From an uncultured Candidatus Saccharibacteria bacterium (GTDB lineage: Bacteria > Patescibacteriota > Minisyncoccia > Phycocordibacterales > DATGWK01): 40,652 nucleotides of DNA. Both the position numbers and the translations under genes were made by a program. The notes under the pieces are model-generated. The model searched no databases and was not told where the DNA came from. It saw nothing but the letters and a program-made list of their open reading frames with translations. Shown here piece by piece: positions 1,067-12,207 of this stretch (position 1 is its first letter; each line of letters starts with the position of its first letter). Location of the stretch: the NCBI GenBank assembly GCA_964356815.1, contig CAYHIR010000006.1, positions 1 to 40,652 of the forward strand. Direction: 5' to 3'.

Positions 1067-1183
1067 AATTTTTTTCAGAATATATTTTTGTCGTGACCGG
1101 CGTAGATTTCTGCTGAAATCTCGCCTCACTCTCAGCCCGTCGGCTTCCGAGAGTCACTCCAAAAATATATTCTGAAAAAAATT
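1067..1183 (-). repeat. Structured intergenic element, three-way-junction family, copy 1
   Basis: Perfect 24 bp inverted arms 1067-1090/1160-1183 enclose a GC-rich core homologous in reverse orientation to 7085-7167. Confidence 0.8.
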
Positions 1184-1223: not shown

Positions 1224-2615
1224 TTAGAGACCTGCAAATTCTTTTTCAGCACCACCATACTCGCCCTTATGCAAACTTTGAAACGTTGCCTTTTTGTCGT
1301 TAAAGAAAAGTTCAACTTTACCCGTCTCGCCGTTGCGGTGCTTTTCGATCAAAATTTCGGCGATATTGGTTTTTTCAGATTGCTCTTTGTATTTGTCTTC
1401 ACGATGGATGAACATCACCACATCGGCGTCTTGCTCGATAGAGCCAGAGTCGCGAAGGTCGGAGAGGCGAGGGCGGCCACCGCGTTGTTCCACGGCACGA
1501 GAGAGCTGTGAGAGGGCAAGGACGGGAATGTCGAGCTCGCGGGCGAGGTGCTTTAGAGAGCGGGAAATTTCGGTCACTTGTTGGACCAAATTGTCGGAGT
1601 TTTTATTGTTTGTCGGCACCATGAGCTGGAGGTAGTCGACCACGAGAAGGCCCAAGCCTTTTTCGCTTTTGAGGCGACGGGCCACAGAGCGCATTTTTAA
1701 AATGTTGTTGCCGGCTTGGTCGTCTATAAAGATTGGCGCCTTAGAAAGACGGTCGAGCGATTGGCGGATAGAGGCAAAATCTTCTTCGCGAGAAAGACGG
1801 CCGGTGCGGAGCTTCCATGCATCGACATTCGACTCAGCCGCGAGCATACGATCGACGAGTTGCTGGGAACTCATTTCAAGAGAAAAAATACCAACCGGTG
1901 TATTGTGGTGCACTGCCGCTTGGCGGGCGATATCGAGGGCTAGGGCAGTTTTTCCCATGGATGGACGGGCGGCGAGGATGATTAGATCGGCTTTTTGAAG
2001 GCCAGAGAGTTTGTTGTCGATCTCCGCGAAGCCAGTAGAGATACCGCGAAGGCCGCCGTCGGAATTATGGAGTTTGTCGAGGCGTTCCCACGCTTCAGTG
2101 AGCTCGTCTTTGAGCTCCACAAACTTATGAACATTAGAAAAATTTGTAACATCAAAAATCTTTTTTTCGGCCTGATCCAAAAGCTCGTCGAGCTCGCCGG
2201 ACTCGTCGTAACCAATAGATGAAATATGATCCGCCGCTTCGATGAGCCTCCGCATCATATATTTTCTCTGAACCAAATTTGCATAATAGGCGGCGTTGGA
2301 AGAGGTGGGCGTGCTTTCGACGAGTGCGGAGAGGCCGCTTCCACCACCAATTTGCTCAAGGCGATTGGTTTCTTTGAGACGAGCAGACACAGAAAGCAGA
2401 TCGATCGGGTGACCACGTTTGAAAAGTTCAAACATAACATCAAAAATGATGCGATTTTTTTCAGCGTAGAAAGAACCAGCAGAAATTATATCGACGATTT
2501 CGTGCATGAGCTCTGGTCGAAGCATAATCGAGCCGAGCAAAGCCGCTTCAGCATCAAGATTTTGTGGCGGGACGCGCCAAGTATTTATTTCTCTGGAGAG
2601 TATTGAATAAGCCAT
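1224..2615 (-). CDS. dnaB: Replicative DNA helicase
   Basis: PPQNLDAE N-terminus, Walker A AARPSMGKT, VDYLQL, LSQLSR, DLRDSGSIEQDAD, KHRNG; no intein. Confidence 0.98.
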   Translation of the reverse strand: MAYSILSREINTWRVPPQNLDAEAALLGSIMLRPELMHEIVDIISAGSFYAEKNRIIFDVMFELFKRGHPIDLLSVSARLKETNRLEQIGGGSGLSALVESTPTSSNAAYYANLVQRKYMMRRLIEAADHISSIGYDESGELDELLDQAEKKIFDVTNFSNVHKFVELKDELTEAWERLDKLHNSDGGLRGISTGFAEIDNKLSGLQKADLIILAARPSMGKTALALDIARQAAVHHNTPVGIFSLEMSSQQLVDRMLAAESNVDAWKLRTGRLSREEDFASIRQSLDRLSKAPIFIDDQAGNNILKMRSVARRLKSEKGLGLLVVDYLQLMVPTNNKNSDNLVQQVTEISRSLKHLARELDIPVLALSQLSRAVEQRGGRPRLSDLRDSGSIEQDADVVMFIHREDKYKEQSEKTNIAEILIEKHRNGETGKVELFFNDKKATFQSLHKGEYGGAEKEFAGL

Positions 2616-2691
2616 TCATCAATCATACAAGAGCCTGGTTCCAAACCCAAATTCTTAAAAACAGGCTATTGTTGGTAAACTGTTGAGAGCC

Positions 2692-2760
2692 TATTAGCGA
2701 CGTAGAGCGAGGGAAATGGGAGAGTAATCTCTCACATTTCCGAGCCGAGGAGCTAATATA
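2692..2760 (+). repeat. GA-mismatch-rich long hairpin element; internally deleted copy at 12277-12310
   Basis: TATTAGC/GCTAATA, GGAAATG/CATTTCC and GAGAG/CTCTC stems; 22 nt identical between 2739-2760 and 12289-12310. Confidence 0.65.
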
Positions 2761-2762
2761 AG

Positions 2763-2844
2763 GATATTGTACCCGCGGCTTGCCGCGGGGCGGACGAGCG
2801 CTAGCGAGTTCCGTGGCGGGGCGGCTTGCCCCGCGTAGAATATC
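2763..2844 (+). repeat. GC-rich REP-like four-way-junction element directly 3' of cysS
   Basis: Closing stem GATATTgTAC/GTAgAATATC with three hairpins, including CCGCGGC-TT-GCCGCGG and GCGGGGC-ggctt-GCCCCGC. Confidence 0.6.
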
Positions 2845-2848
2845 GCTT

Positions 2849-4345
2849 TTATTTAGGCAGTAGAATAGAGCCGTTTGGGCCGTCTTCTAAGATATATCCA
2901 GCTTTTTCTATTTTCTGACGAAGCGAGTCTGCTGTTGCCCAGTCATTTCTTTTGCGGGCAATTTCTCTATCATAGGCCAACTCTTTTATTTTCGATGGCG
3001 TTTTAAGAATTTTATTCGTCAAAATTTCAGCATTTTTTATTATACCTAAGCCGAGAACCTCGTCCATTTTAGAGATTACCTCCAGATTTTTATTGTCTTT
3101 CAAAATTTGCCATACAAAAGCTATGGCTTCCGATGTATTCAAATCGTTGTTTATTATTTCAGTAAATTTTTGGAGTACTTCTCTTCGTTCGCGTTTTTGG
3201 CGGAAATTAAAAATATTTAAAACACTCGCGAAACTCGCTGATGTTGAATGTGATGAGTTAAGTAAAGCGACAGAACGAACAAGTTTGTTGTAAGCGGTTT
3301 GTGCCGCCCCTACCGCCTCGAAGCTAAATTCTGTTTGAGAACGATAATGAGCGGTGAGTAGCCAATATCTAAAGGCTAGAGGGCTTATGCCGCGCTCAAC
3401 CAAATCTTTTAGGCGAATAAAATTTTTTCCCGATTTCGCCATTTTTTCGCCAGAAATAAGCGAGACAAAAGCATTGTGAAGCCAAAAGTGGGCGAGGGGT
3501 TTGCCAAAAGCCGCTTCCGACTGAGCGATTTCATTATTGTGGTGGACTGGTATGTGATCGACGCCGCCTGTGTGTATGTCGAGAGTCTCGCCGAGAAATT
3601 TTCGGGACATTGCTGAACACTCTATATGCCACCCAGGAAAGCCCACGCCCCACGGTGAAGGCCATTCTTGCTCACGCTTATCTTCTGGCTTAGAAAATTT
3701 CCAAAGAGCAAAGTCGCTTTGGTGATGCTTATCAATATTTTTTTCAATTCGCGCCTCAGAATCGGAGTTTGCATTGTCTGATACACCTGAATTGCCACCG
3801 CCGAGCTTGCCGTAGTCGGGAAAAGTTGAGGTATCGAAATACACGCCATCGCTAATTTTATACGCGTTACCATTGGCTATGAGCTTTTCTACTATGGCAA
3901 TTTGCTCGGCAATGTGATCGGTAGCTTTTGGAAAAATAATTTTTTCTTGCGGAATATTTACGGCCTCAATATCAGAGAAAAAGGCCTCGGTATACATTTT
4001 TACAATGTCTTTCACACTCCGACCCTCGCGCCTCGCGCCCTCTTCAAGCTTATCGGGGCCAATGTCTGCATCGCTTGTGAGGTGACCCACATCTGTAATA
4101 TTTATAACCTGTTTTACTTTGTAACCATTCCACTCAAGCACTCGACGGATGGTGTCGGCAAAAATATAAGAACGGAGATTGCCAATGTGCACGAAGTTGT
4201 AGACGGTAGGACCGCAGTTGTACATACCCACAGAATTGGGCTTGATGGAAGAAAATTTTTCTTTTTTACCGGAAAGAGTGTTCCAGAAAAAAATCGACGG
4301 TCGACCGCTCGGTGATTTTTTTGACGCAAGCTTTTCTAAAGCCAT
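2849..4345 (-). CDS. cysS: Cysteine--tRNA ligase
   Basis: YNCGPTVY, HIGN, DFALWK, PGWHIECSAM, HHNNE, KMAKS motifs. Confidence 0.97.
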   Translation of the reverse strand: MALEKLASKKSPSGRPSIFFWNTLSGKKEKFSSIKPNSVGMYNCGPTVYNFVHIGNLRSYIFADTIRRVLEWNGYKVKQVINITDVGHLTSDADIGPDKLEEGARREGRSVKDIVKMYTEAFFSDIEAVNIPQEKIIFPKATDHIAEQIAIVEKLIANGNAYKISDGVYFDTSTFPDYGKLGGGNSGVSDNANSDSEARIEKNIDKHHQSDFALWKFSKPEDKREQEWPSPWGVGFPGWHIECSAMSRKFLGETLDIHTGGVDHIPVHHNNEIAQSEAAFGKPLAHFWLHNAFVSLISGEKMAKSGKNFIRLKDLVERGISPLAFRYWLLTAHYRSQTEFSFEAVGAAQTAYNKLVRSVALLNSSHSTSASFASVLNIFNFRQKRERREVLQKFTEIINNDLNTSEAIAFVWQILKDNKNLEVISKMDEVLGLGIIKNAEILTNKILKTPSKIKELAYDREIARKRNDWATADSLRQKIEKAGYILEDGPNGSILLPK

Positions 4346-6625: not shown

Positions 6626-7069
6626 ATGAAAGTCATATTACAGAAAGATGTTTCTGGTCTTGGAAAAATGTTTGATATTAAAAATGTGGCCGATGGCTAT
6701 GCCGCGAATTTTCTTTTGCCGAAGGGTTTGGCGATTTTGGCTTCAGCACAAGAACAGAAGCGAGTCGGTGAGATGAAGGCTGGTCGCGAGGCGGAGCAAA
6801 AGGTGCAAGAAAATCTTCTTCTAAAAATCCTCGAAGATCTCAAAGGTAAGTCTGTTGTCGTGAAAGCTAAGGCTAATGAAAAAGGCCATCTATTTTCAGG
6901 TATTCACGCTCGTGAGCTAGTCGCCGCTCTTTTAAAAGAAACGCGTCTCACTGTACCAGTTGAGGCCATAAATTTGAAGGCTCCTATAAAAGAGGTTGGT
7001 TCACATGAAATAGAAGTTTCTGTCGGCGACAAAAGAACTTCGTTTGTGGTAGAAATTGTAGCGGAGTAA
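6626..7069 (+). CDS. rplI: 50S ribosomal protein L9
   Basis: [14 protein letters not shown]...[16 protein letters not shown]; C-terminal GHLFSGI. Confidence 0.96.
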
Positions 7070-7185
7070 GATTTAGAAATTGAGTTTTTGAGTCACTCTC
7101 GCAGGACGCGCAGGCGTCCGAGGGTGAGCGAAAATTTCAGCAGAAATTTATCGCGGTGACGAAAAAAGTTAATTTCTAAATCTTA
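7067..7185 (+). repeat. Structured intergenic element, three-way-junction family, copy 2
   Basis: Arms 7067-7083/7169-7185 (17 bp, one G-T pair) plus T5/A5 enclose a core alignable with the minus strand of 1085-1165. Confidence 0.8.
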
Positions 7186-7892: not shown

Positions 7893-9178
7893 AAAAGATA
7901 TTTTTTGGATCGAAAAAATGGGTGCAAAATCTGGTCGTTTCAATACGACTCGGTTTTTTTCTAGCCCTTCGCCAAGTGCGTCGAGGTAATAAATGGACAA
8001 CAGCCCTCATTATTTTTGTGATGATGCTCACATTTCTAAATCTTGTGGTGGTGCGCGGTGTGCTCGTGGGTTTGCTTCAAGGCTCTACAAATGTTTACAA
8101 ATCTGGCTATGCGGGTGATGTTATCCTCACTAATCTTTCCAAAAAATCTTACATTGAAAACAGTCCTTCGATTATAAAAACCATAGAGACTCTGCCGTGG
8201 GTTGAGGCTTACAGCTATCGCTATGTGGAGGGTGGGGAAGTCGAGGTAAATTATAAAACACGAGTGAGGCTCGACGACGACGCCAATTCCGCCGCCGCTT
8301 CTATTGTGGGTATCAATCCCGATCTTGAAGATGGCCTGACGCATATATCGGAAAAGCTGGTGGAGGGTAGATATCTCACCCGCGACGACTCGGACGGCAT
8401 TCTCATTGGCGCAAATTTGCTCAGAAAATATCTCGATATTGATGTGCCAAATTTAACTCTGCTCGAAAATGTGGAAATAGGGGATAGGGTGCGCATGACC
8501 ATCGGTGAAAATAGAAAAGAGTTTACGGTGCTCGGCTTTTTGCAAAGCAAAGTCGATCAGATTGATTTCCGAGTTTTTGTGCTTGACACCACACTTCGAA
8601 ATATTATTGGTCGTGGCGATTTTAATGTCGACGAAATTGCTATTTCGCTAAAGCCCGGCACCGATCCGTACATTGTGAAAAACGCACTTATTCGCTCTGG
8701 CGTGGACGAGTACGCTAGGGTGCAGACATGGGACGAGTCTTTGCCAAAGTTTCTGCTTGATATTCAAAATACTTTCGGCCTTTTGGGTAATGTTGTCGGC
8801 TCTATTGGTCTCGCTGTGGCATCCATCACTATTTTCATCGTCATTTTCATCAATGCCATTACGCGCAGGAAATATATCGGTATTTTGAAAGGTATAGGTA
8901 TAAAATCATCGGCCATCGAGATCGCTTATATTATTCAGGCGATTTTTTATGCCGCCATCGGTATTTTGATCGGTTTGGTGATTCTTTATGGATTTTTGGT
9001 ACCATTCATCGACGCTCACCCAATACCGTTTCCATTTAGCGATGGCATTTTGGTGGCCGAGATTCCAAACACTCTGCTCCGTGCCGCTCTCCTCATGATT
9101 GCCACACTCATTGCGGGCTACATTCCAGCAAAGATCGTTGTGCAACAAAATACGCTAGATTCGATTTTGGGGCGCTGA
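7889..9178 (+). CDS. ABC transporter permease, MacB/FtsX/LolC-E type
   Basis: TM1, large extracytoplasmic domain (VEGRYL...ILIGANL), RRKYIGILKGIG, three C-terminal TMs, YIPAKIV. Confidence 0.9.
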   Translation: MKKIFFGSKKWVQNLVVSIRLGFFLALRQVRRGNKWTTALIIFVMMLTFLNLVVVRGVLVGLLQGSTNVYKSGYAGDVILTNLSKKSYIENSPSIIKTIETLPWVEAYSYRYVEGGEVEVNYKTRVRLDDDANSAAASIVGINPDLEDGLTHISEKLVEGRYLTRDDSDGILIGANLLRKYLDIDVPNLTLLENVEIGDRVRMTIGENRKEFTVLGFLQSKVDQIDFRVFVLDTTLRNIIGRGDFNVDEIAISLKPGTDPYIVKNALIRSGVDEYARVQTWDESLPKFLLDIQNTFGLLGNVVGSIGLAVASITIFIVIFINAITRRKYIGILKGIGIKSSAIEIAYIIQAIFYAAIGILIGLVILYGFLVPFIDAHPIPFPFSDGILVAEIPNTLLRAALLMIATLIAGYIPAKIVVQQNTLDSILGR

Positions 9179-9221
9179 TTAGCTGACCGCGATAAATTGA
9201 GCAAAAATTAAACAAAATTTT

Positions 9222-9914
9222 ATGTCAGTCATGATAAAAGCCGAAAAAATTGTGAAGTCGTATCAGAGCGGTGGCTCGGAGCTCGTGGTTTTGCGCGGCC
9301 TAGATTTTTCGGCAGAGCGCGGCGAATTTGTGGCCATTACCGGCCGCTCGGGCTCGGGCAAAAGTACGCTTTTGTATCAGCTCGGTCTTTTAGATCACCC
9401 AAATTCTGGTCATATAAATATTGACGGCGTAGATATTTTGAAACTCAATAATGAAGAGCGCACCGATTTTCGCCTCAAAGAGCTTGGCTACGTTTTTCAA
9501 GATTATGCTCTTTTGCCAGAGCTCACCTCGCTCGAAAATGTTGCTCTGCCTTTTCTCATGCAAGGCATGACGAAGGCCCAGGCGGCCGGAAGAGCCACGG
9601 AAGCTCTGGCAAGAGTTGGCTTGGCATCCAAAACGAGCAACCTGCCGAGCCAACTTTCTGGCGGCGAGCAACAGCGTGTGAGTATTGCTCGCGCCATTAG
9701 TCATAGTCCAAAAATTATTTTTGCCGACGAGCCAACGGCCAATCTCGATAGCGAAACGGCGGCAATTGTGATAAAAACATTCCTTGAGCTTCACAGGGAA
9801 GGGCAAACGATCGTTATGGTCACGCACGAAGAAGAGTATGCGAGGCAGACAGATCGAATAATCACGCTTTCCGATGGTATAATAACTTCCGACACTCGAC
9901 TCAAGGCTCAATAA
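9222..9914 (+). CDS. ABC transporter ATP-binding protein, LolD/MacB type
   Basis: GRSGSGKST, LSGGEQQRV, ADEPTANLD, VTHE. Confidence 0.95.
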   Translation: MSVMIKAEKIVKSYQSGGSELVVLRGLDFSAERGEFVAITGRSGSGKSTLLYQLGLLDHPNSGHINIDGVDILKLNNEERTDFRLKELGYVFQDYALLPELTSLENVALPFLMQGMTKAQAAGRATEALARVGLASKTSNLPSQLSGGEQQRVSIARAISHSPKIIFADEPTANLDSETAAIVIKTFLELHREGQTIVMVTHEEEYARQTDRIITLSDGIITSDTRLKAQ

Positions 9915-11745: not shown

Positions 11746-12207
11746 ATGTTAAATATAGCTGCTATTAGCTTGTACATGATGCTTTCTGGAGTCACTGGCG
11801 CGTCAGGTATTCCTACGCCAATGGCGCTTCCAGAGGAGCCAGTTCAAACTGTTGAACAAAAAAAGGAAGTTGAAAGATTAATCGAAGAAATAGACGTTGA
11901 GGCTTATGTAAAGGAGTATTTTAAAGACACTCCGATTCTTGCTGAAATTTCTCGTTGCGAATCTCATTTCCGACAAGAAGGAAAGAATGGTCTTACTCTT
12001 CGTGGTATGAAAGATCGAGACGATCTTGGTGCCATGCAGATCAATCAGCGATACCACGGTGAACAAGCTAAAGCTCTAGGACTCGATTTGCACACTCTCG
12101 ATGGTAACTTGGCTTACGCTAAGGCTCTCTATGAGAAAGAAGGTGCATATCCTTGGATGGCCTCATCTGCTTGTTGGTCTAAGGTCAATGAGCTTGCGAT
12201 GCGTTAA
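11746..12207 (+). CDS. Secreted lysozyme-like/SLT transglycosylase domain protein
   Basis: Signal-peptide-like N-terminus, ISRCES (candidate catalytic Glu), DLGAMQIN, YAKALY...PW.AS..CW; in-frame ATG 11746 preferred to TTG 11722. Confidence 0.75.
   Translation: MLNIAAISLYMMLSGVTGASGIPTPMALPEEPVQTVEQKKEVERLIEEIDVEAYVKEYFKDTPILAEISRCESHFRQEGKNGLTLRGMKDRDDLGAMQINQRYHGEQAKALGLDLHTLDGNLAYAKALYEKEGAYPWMASSACWSKVNELAMR

What the first reader, a model, noticed from the sequence alone, without database searches (positions are those of the whole stretch)
1067..1183. Repeated three-way-junction element with compensatory base changes (copy 1, dnaB-recR spacer)
Seen: the minus strand here and the plus strand of 7067-7185 share one architecture. 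It runs: long AT-rich closing stem, tandem GA/GA mismatch, P1 (5 bp), P2 (UCUC stem, 3 nt bulge, variable stem, 4 nt loop), GUGA linker, P3 (4 bp, bulged A, 7 bp, AGCA loop), single G, P1'. Copy 1 core: GA GUGAC UCUC GGA AGCC GACG GGCU GAGA GUGA GGCG AGAUUUC AGCA GAAAUCU A CGCC G GUCAC GA. Copy 2 core: GA GUCAC UCUC GCA GGACGC GCAG GCGUCC GAGG GUGA GCGA AAAUUUC AGCA GAAAUUU A UCGC G GUGAC GA. Stem differences preserve pairing (G-C to C-G in P1, G-C to A-U in P3, U-A to U-G in P2, shifted P3 base), while the GUGA linker, AGCA loop, bulged A and GA pairs are invariant. The outer stems differ in sequence but both pair. Here the perfect 24 bp stem ends 1 nt before the recR AUG, so it would cover the initiation region unless processed. 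Inference: selection on structure, so a structured RNA (processing signal, ribozyme or protein-binding motif) or a folded-ssDNA non-autonomous mobile element. I do not recognise it as a named family.
Basis: partly seen in the sequence, partly recalled or inferred. Interest (0 to 1): 0.85.

Follow-up and report, generated by a model that had tools for sequence, protein, structure and literature searches.

The report
Dispersed three-way-junction hairpin repeat family
This is one copy of a small folded repeat, not matched in the RNA family library searched, that sits between genes about 40 times in a tiny groundwater bacterium and also occurs in some of its relatives; what it does is still unknown.

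Summary
Window 1067-1183 (-) and 7067-7185 (+) fold as described (z -10.8 and -8.0). They are not a pair. They are 2 of at least 42 intergenic copies (about 4.5 kb, 0.6% of a 765-kb Patescibacteria/Paceibacteria assembly).

The family occurs in 19 of 40 sampled relatives and 22 of 150 genomes of the class. Only 2 hits lie outside the class.

Each copy has a conserved core of about 65 nt: P1, P2 with a GSA/GA internal loop, a GA-containing linker, and P3 with an A..A tetraloop. The core sits on a long, near-perfect stem specific to that copy.

Across 101 distinct copies, 27 of 29 pairs covary. G-U outnumbers A-C mismatches, so one defined strand folds.

No Rfam family matches. The weak TwoAYGGAY hit (1 of 22 copies) fails that family's defining features.

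Relatives have empty sites at the same junctions, and I found truncated, nested and gene-end-replacing copies. Copy number swings by lineage. This points to a non-autonomous mobile hairpin element, often terminator-like. No transposase partner, target duplication or RNA evidence was found. A host-functional RNA remains a serious rival.

The parts
1067..1183 (-). Copy 1, whole element (117 nt) in the dnaB-recR spacer
   Evidence: Sequence; fold -59.6 kcal/mol, z -10.75; model R1 102.2 bits
1160..1183 (-). Copy 1, 5' arm of the copy-specific outer stem (24 nt, T-rich)
   Evidence: Perfect 24-bp pairing with 1067-1090; matches nothing else in the genome except its partner arm
1158..1159 (-). Copy 1, 5' GA of the tandem G.A/A.G loop
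   Evidence: Unpaired 2x2 loop in the fold; only the A is at least 90% conserved family-wide
1153..1157 (-). Copy 1, P1 5' strand (GUGAC); pairs with 1093-1097
   Evidence: all 5 P1 pairs covary in the family
1130..1152 (-). Copy 1, P2: UCUC, GGA bulge, AGCC, GACG loop, GGCU, GAGA
   Evidence: P2b pairs are 97.2% paired with changes on both sides; the GSA/GA internal loop is conserved
1126..1129 (-). Copy 1, junction linker GUGA
   Evidence: its GA is at least 90% conserved over 101 copies
1099..1125 (-). Copy 1, P3: GGCG, AGAUUUC, AGCA loop, GAAAUCU, bulged A (1103), CGCC
   Evidence: 9 of 9 upper pairs covary and are 96.8% paired
1098..1098 (-). Copy 1, single junction G between P3 and P1'
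1091..1097 (-). Copy 1, P1 3' strand (GUCAC, 1093-1097) and 3' GA (1091-1092)
1067..1090 (-). Copy 1, 3' arm of the outer stem (A-rich); ends 1 nt before the recR start codon (1063-1065)
   Evidence: RecR by Pfam
1224..1226 (-). dnaB stop codon, 40 nt upstream of copy 1
   Evidence: ORF 1224-2615; DnaB_C 342.5 bits
7067..7185 (+). Copy 2, whole element (119 nt) between the convergent genes rplI and rpmA
   Evidence: Sequence; fold -57.6 kcal/mol, z -8.04; R1 103.8 bits; contigs of two runs bridge it unchanged
7067..7089 (+). Copy 2, 5' arm; its first three bases are the rplI stop codon TAA
7090..7096 (+). Copy 2, 5' GA (7090-7091) and P1 5' strand GUCAC (7092-7096)
7097..7123 (+). Copy 2, P2: UCUC, GCA bulge, GGACGC, GCAG loop, GCGUCC, GAGG
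7124..7127 (+). Copy 2, linker GUGA
7128..7154 (+). Copy 2, P3: GCGA, AAAUUUC, AGCA loop, GAAAUUU, bulged A (7150), UCGC
7155..7162 (+). Copy 2, junction G (7155), P1 3' strand GUGAC (7156-7160), 3' GA (7161-7162)
7163..7185 (+). Copy 2, 3' arm; its last three bases (TTA) are the rpmA stop codon on the minus strand

Best explanation
Both window copies belong to a large family of non-coding, hairpin-shaped dispersed repeats of Paceibacteria (Patescibacteria) that I could not find described.

Anatomy. A unit is about 100-125 nt. In about a fifth of copies it starts with a short outer helix and a G.A / N-N / A.G internal loop. All copies have a long, nearly perfect helix whose sequence is specific to the copy. 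Next comes a semi-conserved UUUUGA...UCAAAA segment, then P1 and a conserved three-way junction. The junction comprises P2 (with a GSA/GA internal loop), a GA-containing linker, P3 (AAAUUUC-ANNA-GAAAUUU with a bulged A) and a single G.

Most likely reading. It is a non-autonomous, selfish or mobile structured element, like REP sequences or miniature inverted-repeat transposable elements (MITEs) in lifestyle. It enters intergenic DNA as a whole hairpin. It is copied or selected through the folded single strand of one polarity, either ssDNA or RNA. It is tolerated because it folds into a self-contained hairpin that brings its two flanks back together.

Likely local effects. Where the arms run A-rich then T-rich, it probably doubles as a bidirectional terminator (copy 2, between rplI and rpmA). 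Where they run T-rich then A-rich (copy 1, inside the dnaB-recR operon), it probably does not terminate.

Shown: the family, its structure, the strand-specific fold, insertion relative to relatives, and the independence of core and arms.

Inferred: that it is mobile, the single-stranded intermediate, and the terminator or neutral role.

Unknown: the enzyme that moves it, and how new arm sequences arise.
For: - Multicopy and intergenic. R1 gives 39 matches, of which 37 are distinct true copies. Hairpin scanning adds 5 divergent members. That makes 42 copies, 4,550 nt, 0.6% of the assembly and about 7% of non-coding DNA.
- Lineage-specific copy number. Among relatives, 20 of 41 genomes have hits, with 37 in G000, 21 in G028 and 0 in 21 genomes. 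In the class sample, 23 of 151 have hits, with bursts of 25, 16 and 14. Only 2 genomes outside the class have hits, out of 151 sampled from the phylum.
- Structure. 92.5% of cells are paired against 66.7% in shuffles. 27 of 29 pairs change on both sides. The covariation score is 0.653, against 0.186 in shuffles and 0.085-0.131 with partners slid.
- One strand folds. In the core, G-U 81 against A-C 44. In the arms beyond the model, G-U 56 against A-C 16. A GNA/GNA loop sits at the stem base in 17 of 76 copies, against 0 of 76 for the opposite-strand equivalent.
- Insertion relative to relatives, dnaB-recR. The spacer is -1 to 12 nt in 6 of 14 related loci. Two other lineages carry family members there with different arms and opposite orientations. 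4 of 4 family relatives lack the element there.
- Insertion relative to relatives, another site. In the sister genus one site is filled in 2 genomes, while 4 genomes have a short spacer without any palindrome.
- Decay and nesting. A truncated type-A fragment abuts a type-C copy. C3:54434 lacks its outer stem.
- Arms travel with the element. Two copies share 26-nt arms in different flanks. Two copies with different cores share 16 nt of arm, and in both that arm supplies the last codons and the stop of unrelated genes.
- Terminator-like arms. The 5' arm is A-rich in 52 copies and T-rich in 20. At the rplI-rpmA junction about 20 of 28 related loci (my count by eye) carry a plain long bidirectional-terminator hairpin where G000 has copy 2.
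Against: - No partner enzyme. G000 has no Y1 transposase, TnpB, IS110 or DDE_Tnp_1. Its two rve genes are single-copy with unrelated inverted repeats. No IS-sized repeat exists.
- No association across genomes. Neither Y1 transposase nor reverse transcriptase presence tracks the element.
- No target-site duplication or fixed terminal dinucleotide at 28 inspected boundaries (a script that stopped early).
- No presence/absence polymorphism in the four metagenome runs laid on the window.
- Slow change at orthologous loci. In two species at about 80% DNA identity, elements keep their arms and sometimes their cores. This fits a vertically kept, possibly useful element.
- Unexplained arm diversity. 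Cores that are 90-98% identical sit on unrelated arms: arm identity is 0.32, the same as the background 0.31, in 10 of 435 pairs. Simple copy-and-paste of whole hairpins does not explain this.
- Possible alternative origin. The rplI-rpmA result could equally mean that a core invaded an existing terminator.
Confidence: 0.45

Rival explanations
1. Host-functional structured RNA. The three-way junction is the binding or processing module of a cis-acting RNA signal. Examples would be an RNase III-type or other ribonucleoprotein processing site, or an mRNA 3'-end stabiliser or insulator. Alternatively it is a small RNA gene family. The long helix presents the module, and the many copies reflect use at many operons.
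For: - All helices covary strongly and the unpaired nucleotides are conserved: the GSA/GA loop, the GA of the linker and the A..A tetraloop.
- G.A-rich internal loops are strand-specific, and G-U outnumbers A-C.
- Orthologous elements are retained between species. At one locus they change less (5 of 98 nt) than their flanks (7 of 52 and 8 of 50 nt; my count).
- Four copies lie 5-25 nt upstream of tRNA or tmRNA genes in the same orientation.
- Perfect 20-29-bp helices are the size of RNase III substrates (established knowledge, not tested here).
Against: - Orientation ignores transcription. In co-directional gene pairs 11 copies are sense and 13 antisense (rough ORF calls).
- No conserved promoter was seen upstream in G000 (by eye), and none was flagged near the window copies.
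- Distribution is patchy, with 0 hits in 21 of 41 close genomes. That is odd for a needed signal.
- Truncated copies exist.
- Arms have no other target in the genome.
Confidence: 0.25
2. Loop-invading core. Only the roughly 80-nt core with its short inner stem is mobile. It inserts into the apex of hairpins that already exist, mainly the long palindromic bidirectional terminators of these genomes. The copy-specific arms are therefore host terminator stems.
For: - Relatives carry plain, long, perfect A-tract/T-tract hairpins at the rplI-rpmA junction (about 20 of 28 loci by eye; 1 carries the element).
- Arms are mostly A-rich on the 5' side and abut stop codons.
- G000 has 30 plain intergenic hairpins with perfect stems of 10 bp or more, a length similar to the variable part of the arms.
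- Cores and arms vary independently.
Against: - Empty sites without any palindrome: dnaB-recR spacers of -1 to 12 nt in 6 of 14 loci, and 4 of 8 genomes at the sister-genus site.
- Arms shared between copies at different loci.
- A conserved GNA/GNA loop and outer helix lie outside the variable helix in 17 of 76 copies.
- At one orthologous site the empty genome has a palindrome of a different sequence from the filled genome's arms.
Confidence: 0.15
3. DNA-level site. The element acts as a cruciform or as a double-stranded binding site, for example through the 7-4-7 palindrome of P3. It would serve chromosome organisation, replication or site-specific recombination.
For: - The P3 stem is conserved in sequence, not only in pairing. 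Its U-A and A-U pairs are the same in 87-95 of 101 copies.
- Orientation is random relative to genes.
- Spacing averages about one copy per 18 kb (42 copies in 765 kb).
Against: - G-U over A-C asymmetry and strand-specific G.A loops are not expected for a duplex site.
- P1 and P2 covary freely in sequence.
- 21 of 41 related genomes have no copy.
- Only one tyrosine recombinase gene is present.
Confidence: 0.07

Closest known systems
TwoAYGGAY RNA motif (Rfam RF01731)
   Same: A long basal stem carries two hairpins. It is multicopy in genomes, intergenic, of unknown function, and mobile-element-like expansion has been proposed for it. Source: bioRxiv 10.64898/2026.09.22.753630, of which I read the abstract, the passages found in section 8, and section 11. 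Copy 1 gives a sub-threshold match.
   Different: The defining AYGGAY loops are absent; the loops here are GACG/GCAG and AGCA. The score is 32.8 bits against the gathering score of 43. Copy 2 and 20 further copies give no match. The host clades named in the 2010 table differ: gamma-Proteobacteria, Clostridiales and human gut.
bcr1 repeat of the Bacillus cereus group (MITE-like)
   Same: About 155 nt, multicopy. [quoted passage not shown]
   Different: As I recall, not from a call, bcr1 has conserved terminal repeats and a target duplication. Here the outer arms are copy-specific and no duplication was found. The phylum is different, and no sequence relation was tested.
MITEs such as Correia, ERIC and Nezha
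   Same: Small, non-coding and intergenic, folding into very stable long hairpins. Filled and empty sites are seen among relatives. Some are fused to the ends of reading frames (review passages).
   Different: MITEs have terminal inverted repeats shared by all copies and by a parent IS, plus direct target duplications. Here only the inner 6-12 bp are shared. No parent IS and no duplication were found.
REP/REPIN elements with RAYT transposases
   Same: High-copy intergenic palindromes, in either orientation, often at gene ends.
   Different: No Y1 (RAYT-type) transposase is found in G000. In the 9 family relatives there is none apart from one sub-cutoff match in G005. G028, with 21 copies, has none. 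REPs are short, GC-rich stem loops, not a 65-nt three-way junction.
[quoted passage not shown]
   Same: A repeat of about 105 nt whose structure resembles a terminator (table and passage). Many copies here have terminator-like A/T-tract arms.
   Different: The conserved branched apex has no counterpart in what I read.
Integron attC sites
   Same: Recognised as folded single strands of one polarity, with structure conserved more than sequence (recalled knowledge).
   Different: The arrangement is the reverse. In attC the base of the hairpin is conserved and the apex varies (recalled). Here the apex is conserved and the base varies. No integron integrase context was seen.

Membership tests
TwoAYGGAY (RF01731) | Covariance-model score at or above the gathering score (43 bits) | tested here: not met
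   Copy 1 scores 32.8 bits, E 0.0012. Copy 2 has no match at E<=10. 0 of 20 further copies match at E<=1.
TwoAYGGAY (RF01731) | AYGGAY in the terminal loops of both hairpins | tested here: not met
   The loops are GACG/GCAG (P2) and AGCA (P3). The family-wide loop consensus is A-g-c-A.
TwoAYGGAY (RF01731) | Two hairpins on a common long basal stem, multicopy | tested here: met
MITE | Terminal inverted repeats shared by all copies | tested here: not met
   The outer arms are unrelated between copies (identity 0.31-0.32). Only the inner UUUUGA/UCAAAA segment plus P1 are shared.
MITE | Direct target-site duplication | tested here: not met
   No recurrent direct repeat or terminal dinucleotide at the 28 boundaries listed before the script stopped.
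MITE | Parent IS with matching ends, in this or a related genome | tested here: not met
   No IS-sized repeats. The two rve genes have other inverted repeats. TnpB, IS110, DDE_Tnp_1 and Y1 give 0 matches in G000. Only these families and this genome were searched.
MITE | Small, non-coding, stable hairpin, with filled and empty sites among relatives | tested here: met
REP/REPIN-RAYT | Cognate Y1 (RAYT) transposase in genomes that carry the repeat | tested here: not met
   PF01797 gives 0 matches in G000, only one sub-cutoff match among the 9 family genomes, and 0 in G028. It is present in 20 of 41 genomes overall, without relation to the element.
Intrinsic (Rho-independent) terminator | G+C-rich stem followed directly by a T run | tested here: not met
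   The consensus scan flags neither window copy. In copy 1 the 3' arm is A-rich. Many other copies do have T-rich 3' arms, so a terminator role is plausible for those but was not tested.
Known self-cleaving ribozymes (hammerhead, twister, twister-sister, pistol, hatchet, HDV-like) as held in Rfam | Match to the family model | tested here: not met
   No such family appears among matches at E<=10 around either copy, or at E<=1 in 20 other copies. Catalysis itself cannot be tested here.
Integron attC | Conserved R/L boxes at the hairpin base with a variable apex | tested here: not met
   The reverse is seen: a conserved apex on a variable base. The definition is recalled, not from a call.

The most novel reading that the evidence does not exclude
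The three-way junction is the active module of a mobile nucleic acid that needs no transposase. It could be a new self-cleaving or self-ligating RNA, or a structure-specific ssDNA integration signal. At each insertion the long stem would be rebuilt by fold-back (self-templated) synthesis. That would explain three observations: the arms are perfect palindromes, they differ between copies with near-identical cores, and one strand's fold is under selection.
Probability: 0.1. Interest if true: 0.9.

Novelty: new variant of a known kind. Interest (0 to 1): 0.62.

Why it matters
Patescibacteria have very small, gene-dense genomes. Here a single non-coding family takes up about 7% of the non-coding DNA. 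It recurs across a whole class, with bursts of 14 to 37 or more copies.

It is a structurally well-supported nucleic-acid family that Rfam and the searched literature do not hold. Its architecture is unusual: a conserved branched apex on long, perfect stems specific to each copy.

If it is mobile, it moves without a recognisable transposase in these genomes. If it is a host RNA signal, it would be a major and so far unseen layer of operon punctuation in uncultivated bacteria.

Either way, the covariance model gives annotators a way to mask or label these loci. It also gives experimenters a defined 65-nt core to test.

Tried and rejected
- TwoAYGGAY membership. Rejected: it rests on one sub-threshold hit, its defining loops are absent, and 21 other copies give no hit.
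- RAYT/Y1 transposase as the driver. Rejected for G000, its family and G028.
- Reverse transcriptase as the driver. G000 has 4 RVT_1 genes and G028 has 2. But G002, G003, G007, G009 and G022 have 8-9 copies of the element and no RT. RT is present in 7 of the 20 genomes with the element and 5 of the 21 without. No link.
- IS parents. None found.
- Arms as guides. The arms match only their own partner arm, apart from two pairs of related copies. Shuffled controls gave 10 hits over 150 queries. Phage or foreign targets were not searched.
- Polarity. In G000 the element's 3' side abuts a neighbouring gene (<=8 nt) in 19 of 35 cases, against 4 of 35 on the 5' side (my count). This was not reproduced in relatives (8 of 22 against 11 of 25). 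I treat it as unexplained, not as evidence.
- Own promoter. I inspected the 70 nt upstream of all 42 copies by eye and ran the consensus scan on the window. Neither gave a consistent signal.
- Expression. No RNA holder was listed among the sequencing runs.
- Population variation. Contigs of four DNA runs showed the same strain, and no joint skips either copy. Contigs cannot show rare alleles.
- G-U against A-C split by gene orientation in G000. Too few mismatches to say anything.
- Metagenome and genome scans with DnaB. These found no relative closer than 77% and 82% protein identity. Same-species empty sites could therefore not be examined.
- The weak R1 hit at window 9164-9239 (E 0.84) does not fold like the family. 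I treat it as noise.
- Supplements of the TwoAYGGAY preprint (figs S17-S29) were not seen. They may show Bacillota variants closer to this architecture.
- Not used: structure prediction, complex prediction, protein homology searches.

Full report
**Observation**

RNAfold gives the described architecture for both:
- Copy 1 (1067-1183, minus strand): -59.6 kcal/mol, z -10.75.
- Copy 2 (7067-7185, plus strand): -57.6 kcal/mol, z -8.04.
- 0 of 200 shuffles reach either value.

The pairwise alignment shows the listed compensatory changes in P1, P2a and P3. Pfam confirms the neighbours as dnaB and recR for copy 1, and rplI (L9) and rpmA (L27) for copy 2. The copy 1 stem ends 1 nt before the recR ATG. 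The outermost base triplets of copy 2 are the stop codons of the two convergent ribosomal protein genes.

**It is a family, not a pair**

- A profile of the two copies finds 23 places in the 764,973-bp, 25-contig assembly.
- A covariance model with the hand-set structure (R1) finds 39 matches. One of these is the opposite strand of another match, and one is noise at E 0.84. That leaves 37 copies.
- A scan for long inverted repeats shows that nearly all stems of 17 bp or more in the genome enclose this core. It reveals 5 more divergent members.
- The 42 copies total 4,550 nt: 0.6% of the assembly, or roughly 7% of the DNA outside my rough ORF calls. All lie between ORFs.

**Anatomy**

Each copy has a conserved core of about 65 nt in four main sequence types. 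The core sits on an outer helix of 15-29 bp that is almost always perfect and differs from copy to copy.

In the 101 distinct sequences aligned to the model, the positions at least 90% conserved are:
- the A before P1;
- parts of P2a and P2b;
- the GAG of P2a;
- the GA of the junction linker;
- the UU, G and AA of P3;
- the two A's of the tetraloop.

The 3' half of the GA/GA tandem is not conserved; many copies have AAGUAAC/GUUACUU instead. A UUUUGA...UCAAAA segment next to P1 is semi-conserved.

In 17 of 76 copies the variable helix is closed at its base by a G-N-A/G-N-A loop. In 14 of these, two or more further pairs follow. The opposite-strand equivalent occurs in 0 of 76.

**Structure is under selection, on one strand**

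On alignment A3:
- 92.5% of cells form pairs, against 66.7% in shuffles.
- 27 of 29 pairs change on both sides.
- The covariation score is 0.653, against 0.186 in shuffles (0 of 500 reach it) and 0.085-0.131 when partners are slid.

The alignment was fitted to the model, which leans towards the structure. The slid control and the many pair types argue that the signal is real.

Mismatches that keep a wobble on the core's strand outnumber those that would do so on the other strand:
- 81 G-U against 44 A-C inside the model.
- 56 against 16 in the arms beyond it, where no model was used.

**Distribution**

- Relatives named in public records are Zambryskibacteria, Taylorbacteria, Paceibacteria and Parcubacteria.
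- The runs that hold the window are labelled groundwater metagenome.
- R1 hits 20 of 41 genomes: G000, all 9 of its family, and 10 of 31 other families of the order.
- The broader model R2 hits 23 of 151 genomes sampled from the class.
- R2 hits 4 of 151 genomes sampled from the phylum. Two of these lie outside the class.
- 868 kb of related metagenome loci hold only 9 copies, so G000 is expanded.

**Known families**

- Rfam 15 gives no match at gathering scores in the window.
- At permissive thresholds copy 1 gives TwoAYGGAY at 32.8 bits (gathering score 43). Copy 2 and 20 other copies do not, and the AYGGAY loops are absent.
- TwoAYGGAY is itself a multicopy element of unknown function. A recent preprint suggests Csr/Rsm binding and mobile-like expansion for it.
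- Four literature searches for such a repeat in this phylum, or for terminator-loop insertions, found nothing that describes it. A review supplied the comparison classes.

**Evidence on origin**

1. The dnaB-recR junction.
   - dnaB and recR are adjacent in relatives.
   - The spacer is -1 to 12 nt in 6 of 14 loci.
   - In two loci it carries family members with other arms, one sense and one antisense.
   - In others it carries unrelated long hairpins.
   - Four family genomes lack the element there.
   - So copy 1, arms included, is an insertion into what was a tight junction.

2. A site in the sister genus. The site is filled in two species, with an upstream module, arms and core. Four species have a short spacer without a palindrome, and two have other inserts.

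3. Orthologous filled sites.
   - Between two species at about 80% identity the arms are kept.
   - At one site the core is also kept.
   - At another site the core is largely different.

4. Independence of cores and arms within G000. Cores that are 90-98% identical sit on unrelated arms: 10 of 435 pairs, arm identity 0.32 against a background of 0.31. Conversely, two loci share 26-nt arms but differ in P3.

5. Arms that end genes. Two copies with different core types share 16 nt of arm. In both, that arm encodes the last codons and the stop of unrelated genes.

6. Decay. A truncated copy abuts another copy.

7. The rplI-rpmA junction. About 20 of 28 related loci (by my inspection) have a plain, long, perfect A-tract/T-tract hairpin there, and one has a family member.

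8. Terminator-like arms. The 5' arm is A-rich in 52 copies and T-rich in 20. Copy 1, inside an operon, is of the minority kind.

**What was not found**

- No transposase partner.
- No link to reverse transcriptases.
- No target duplication (partial output).
- No trans target of the arms.
- No orientation preference relative to genes: 11 sense, 13 antisense, 9 convergent, 2 divergent, 7 at contig ends, against a background of 530/98/93.
- No promoter or terminator call at the window copies.
- No RNA data.
- No allele without the element in four runs.

**Reading**

The sum fits best a non-autonomous, mobile or once-mobile hairpin element. The folded sense strand is what is copied or selected. 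The element persists because it is self-contained, and it often serves as, or replaces, a bidirectional terminator.

The independence of cores and arms is not explained by simple copying. Three mechanisms remain open: gene conversion among cores, invasion of existing hairpins by the core alone, or fold-back regeneration of arms.

A host-functional RNA is the main rival. It cannot be excluded without transcript data.

Noticed in passing
G000:C9:340-951, C19:8387-8998, C3:59869-60474, C5:4595-5188; repeat pairs such as C1:98221-98483/96610-96872 and C8:18757-19001/18511-18755: Four RVT_1 reverse transcriptase genes of about 325-357 aa in a 765-kb genome. There are also several 130-330-nt imperfect repeat pairs at 73-93% identity. 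Together they look like diversity-generating retroelements with template and variable repeats. They were not typed.
   Followed up: partly
G000:C8:22435-22538 (-) and C8:22572-22670 (+): Two family members of different core types sit 33 nt apart in divergent orientation. The second lies 5 nt upstream of tRNA-Thr. The TwoAYGGAY preprint also reports divergent doublets.
   Followed up: no
G000 copies next to tRNA/tmRNA: C2:72621, C1:85242, C3:27391, C8:22572 (same orientation, 5-25 nt upstream); C5:48321, C1:86127 (convergent, 5-7 nt): 6 of 42 copies lie within 25 nt of a tRNA or tmRNA gene, always on the element's 3' side.
   Followed up: partly
G000, all 42 copies: The element's 3' side abuts a neighbouring gene (<=8 nt, often including its stop codon) in 19 of 35 cases, against 4 of 35 on the 5' side. 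The asymmetry is not seen in relatives. Unexplained.
   Followed up: partly
Loci L133-L152 (genus g3: G002, G003, G009): Copies in the sister genus carry a conserved upstream module of about 40 nt: a small perfect palindrome followed by a pyrimidine-rich tract. It sits directly 5' of the hairpin. Four G002 copies share module and arms.
   Followed up: partly
L018 (G009:C3, about 11780-11830) versus L010 (G002:C9): Where G002 has an element, G009 keeps the upstream module but has only a perfect 12+12-nt palindrome with no loop. Its sequence differs from the G002 arms.
   Followed up: partly
G000:C5:44898-45857 and C10:about 2280-3170: Two single-copy IS481-like (HTH + rve) transposase genes, each with its own short inverted repeats, unrelated to the element.
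   Followed up: yes
window 1-40652: No Rfam family reaches its gathering score anywhere in the 40.6-kb window, so it holds no tRNA, rRNA or riboswitch.
   Followed up: no
L233 (same spacer sequence as G007, L015) and L244, dnaB-recR spacers: Other lineages carry long-stemmed hairpins (about 20 bp) with unrelated apical sequence in the same spacer. They may be further hairpin-repeat families.
   Followed up: no
G000:C3:11041-11094: The only plain hairpin in the genome with a perfect 25-bp stem and a 4-nt loop. It has the A-tract/T-tract form of a bidirectional terminator.
   Followed up: no
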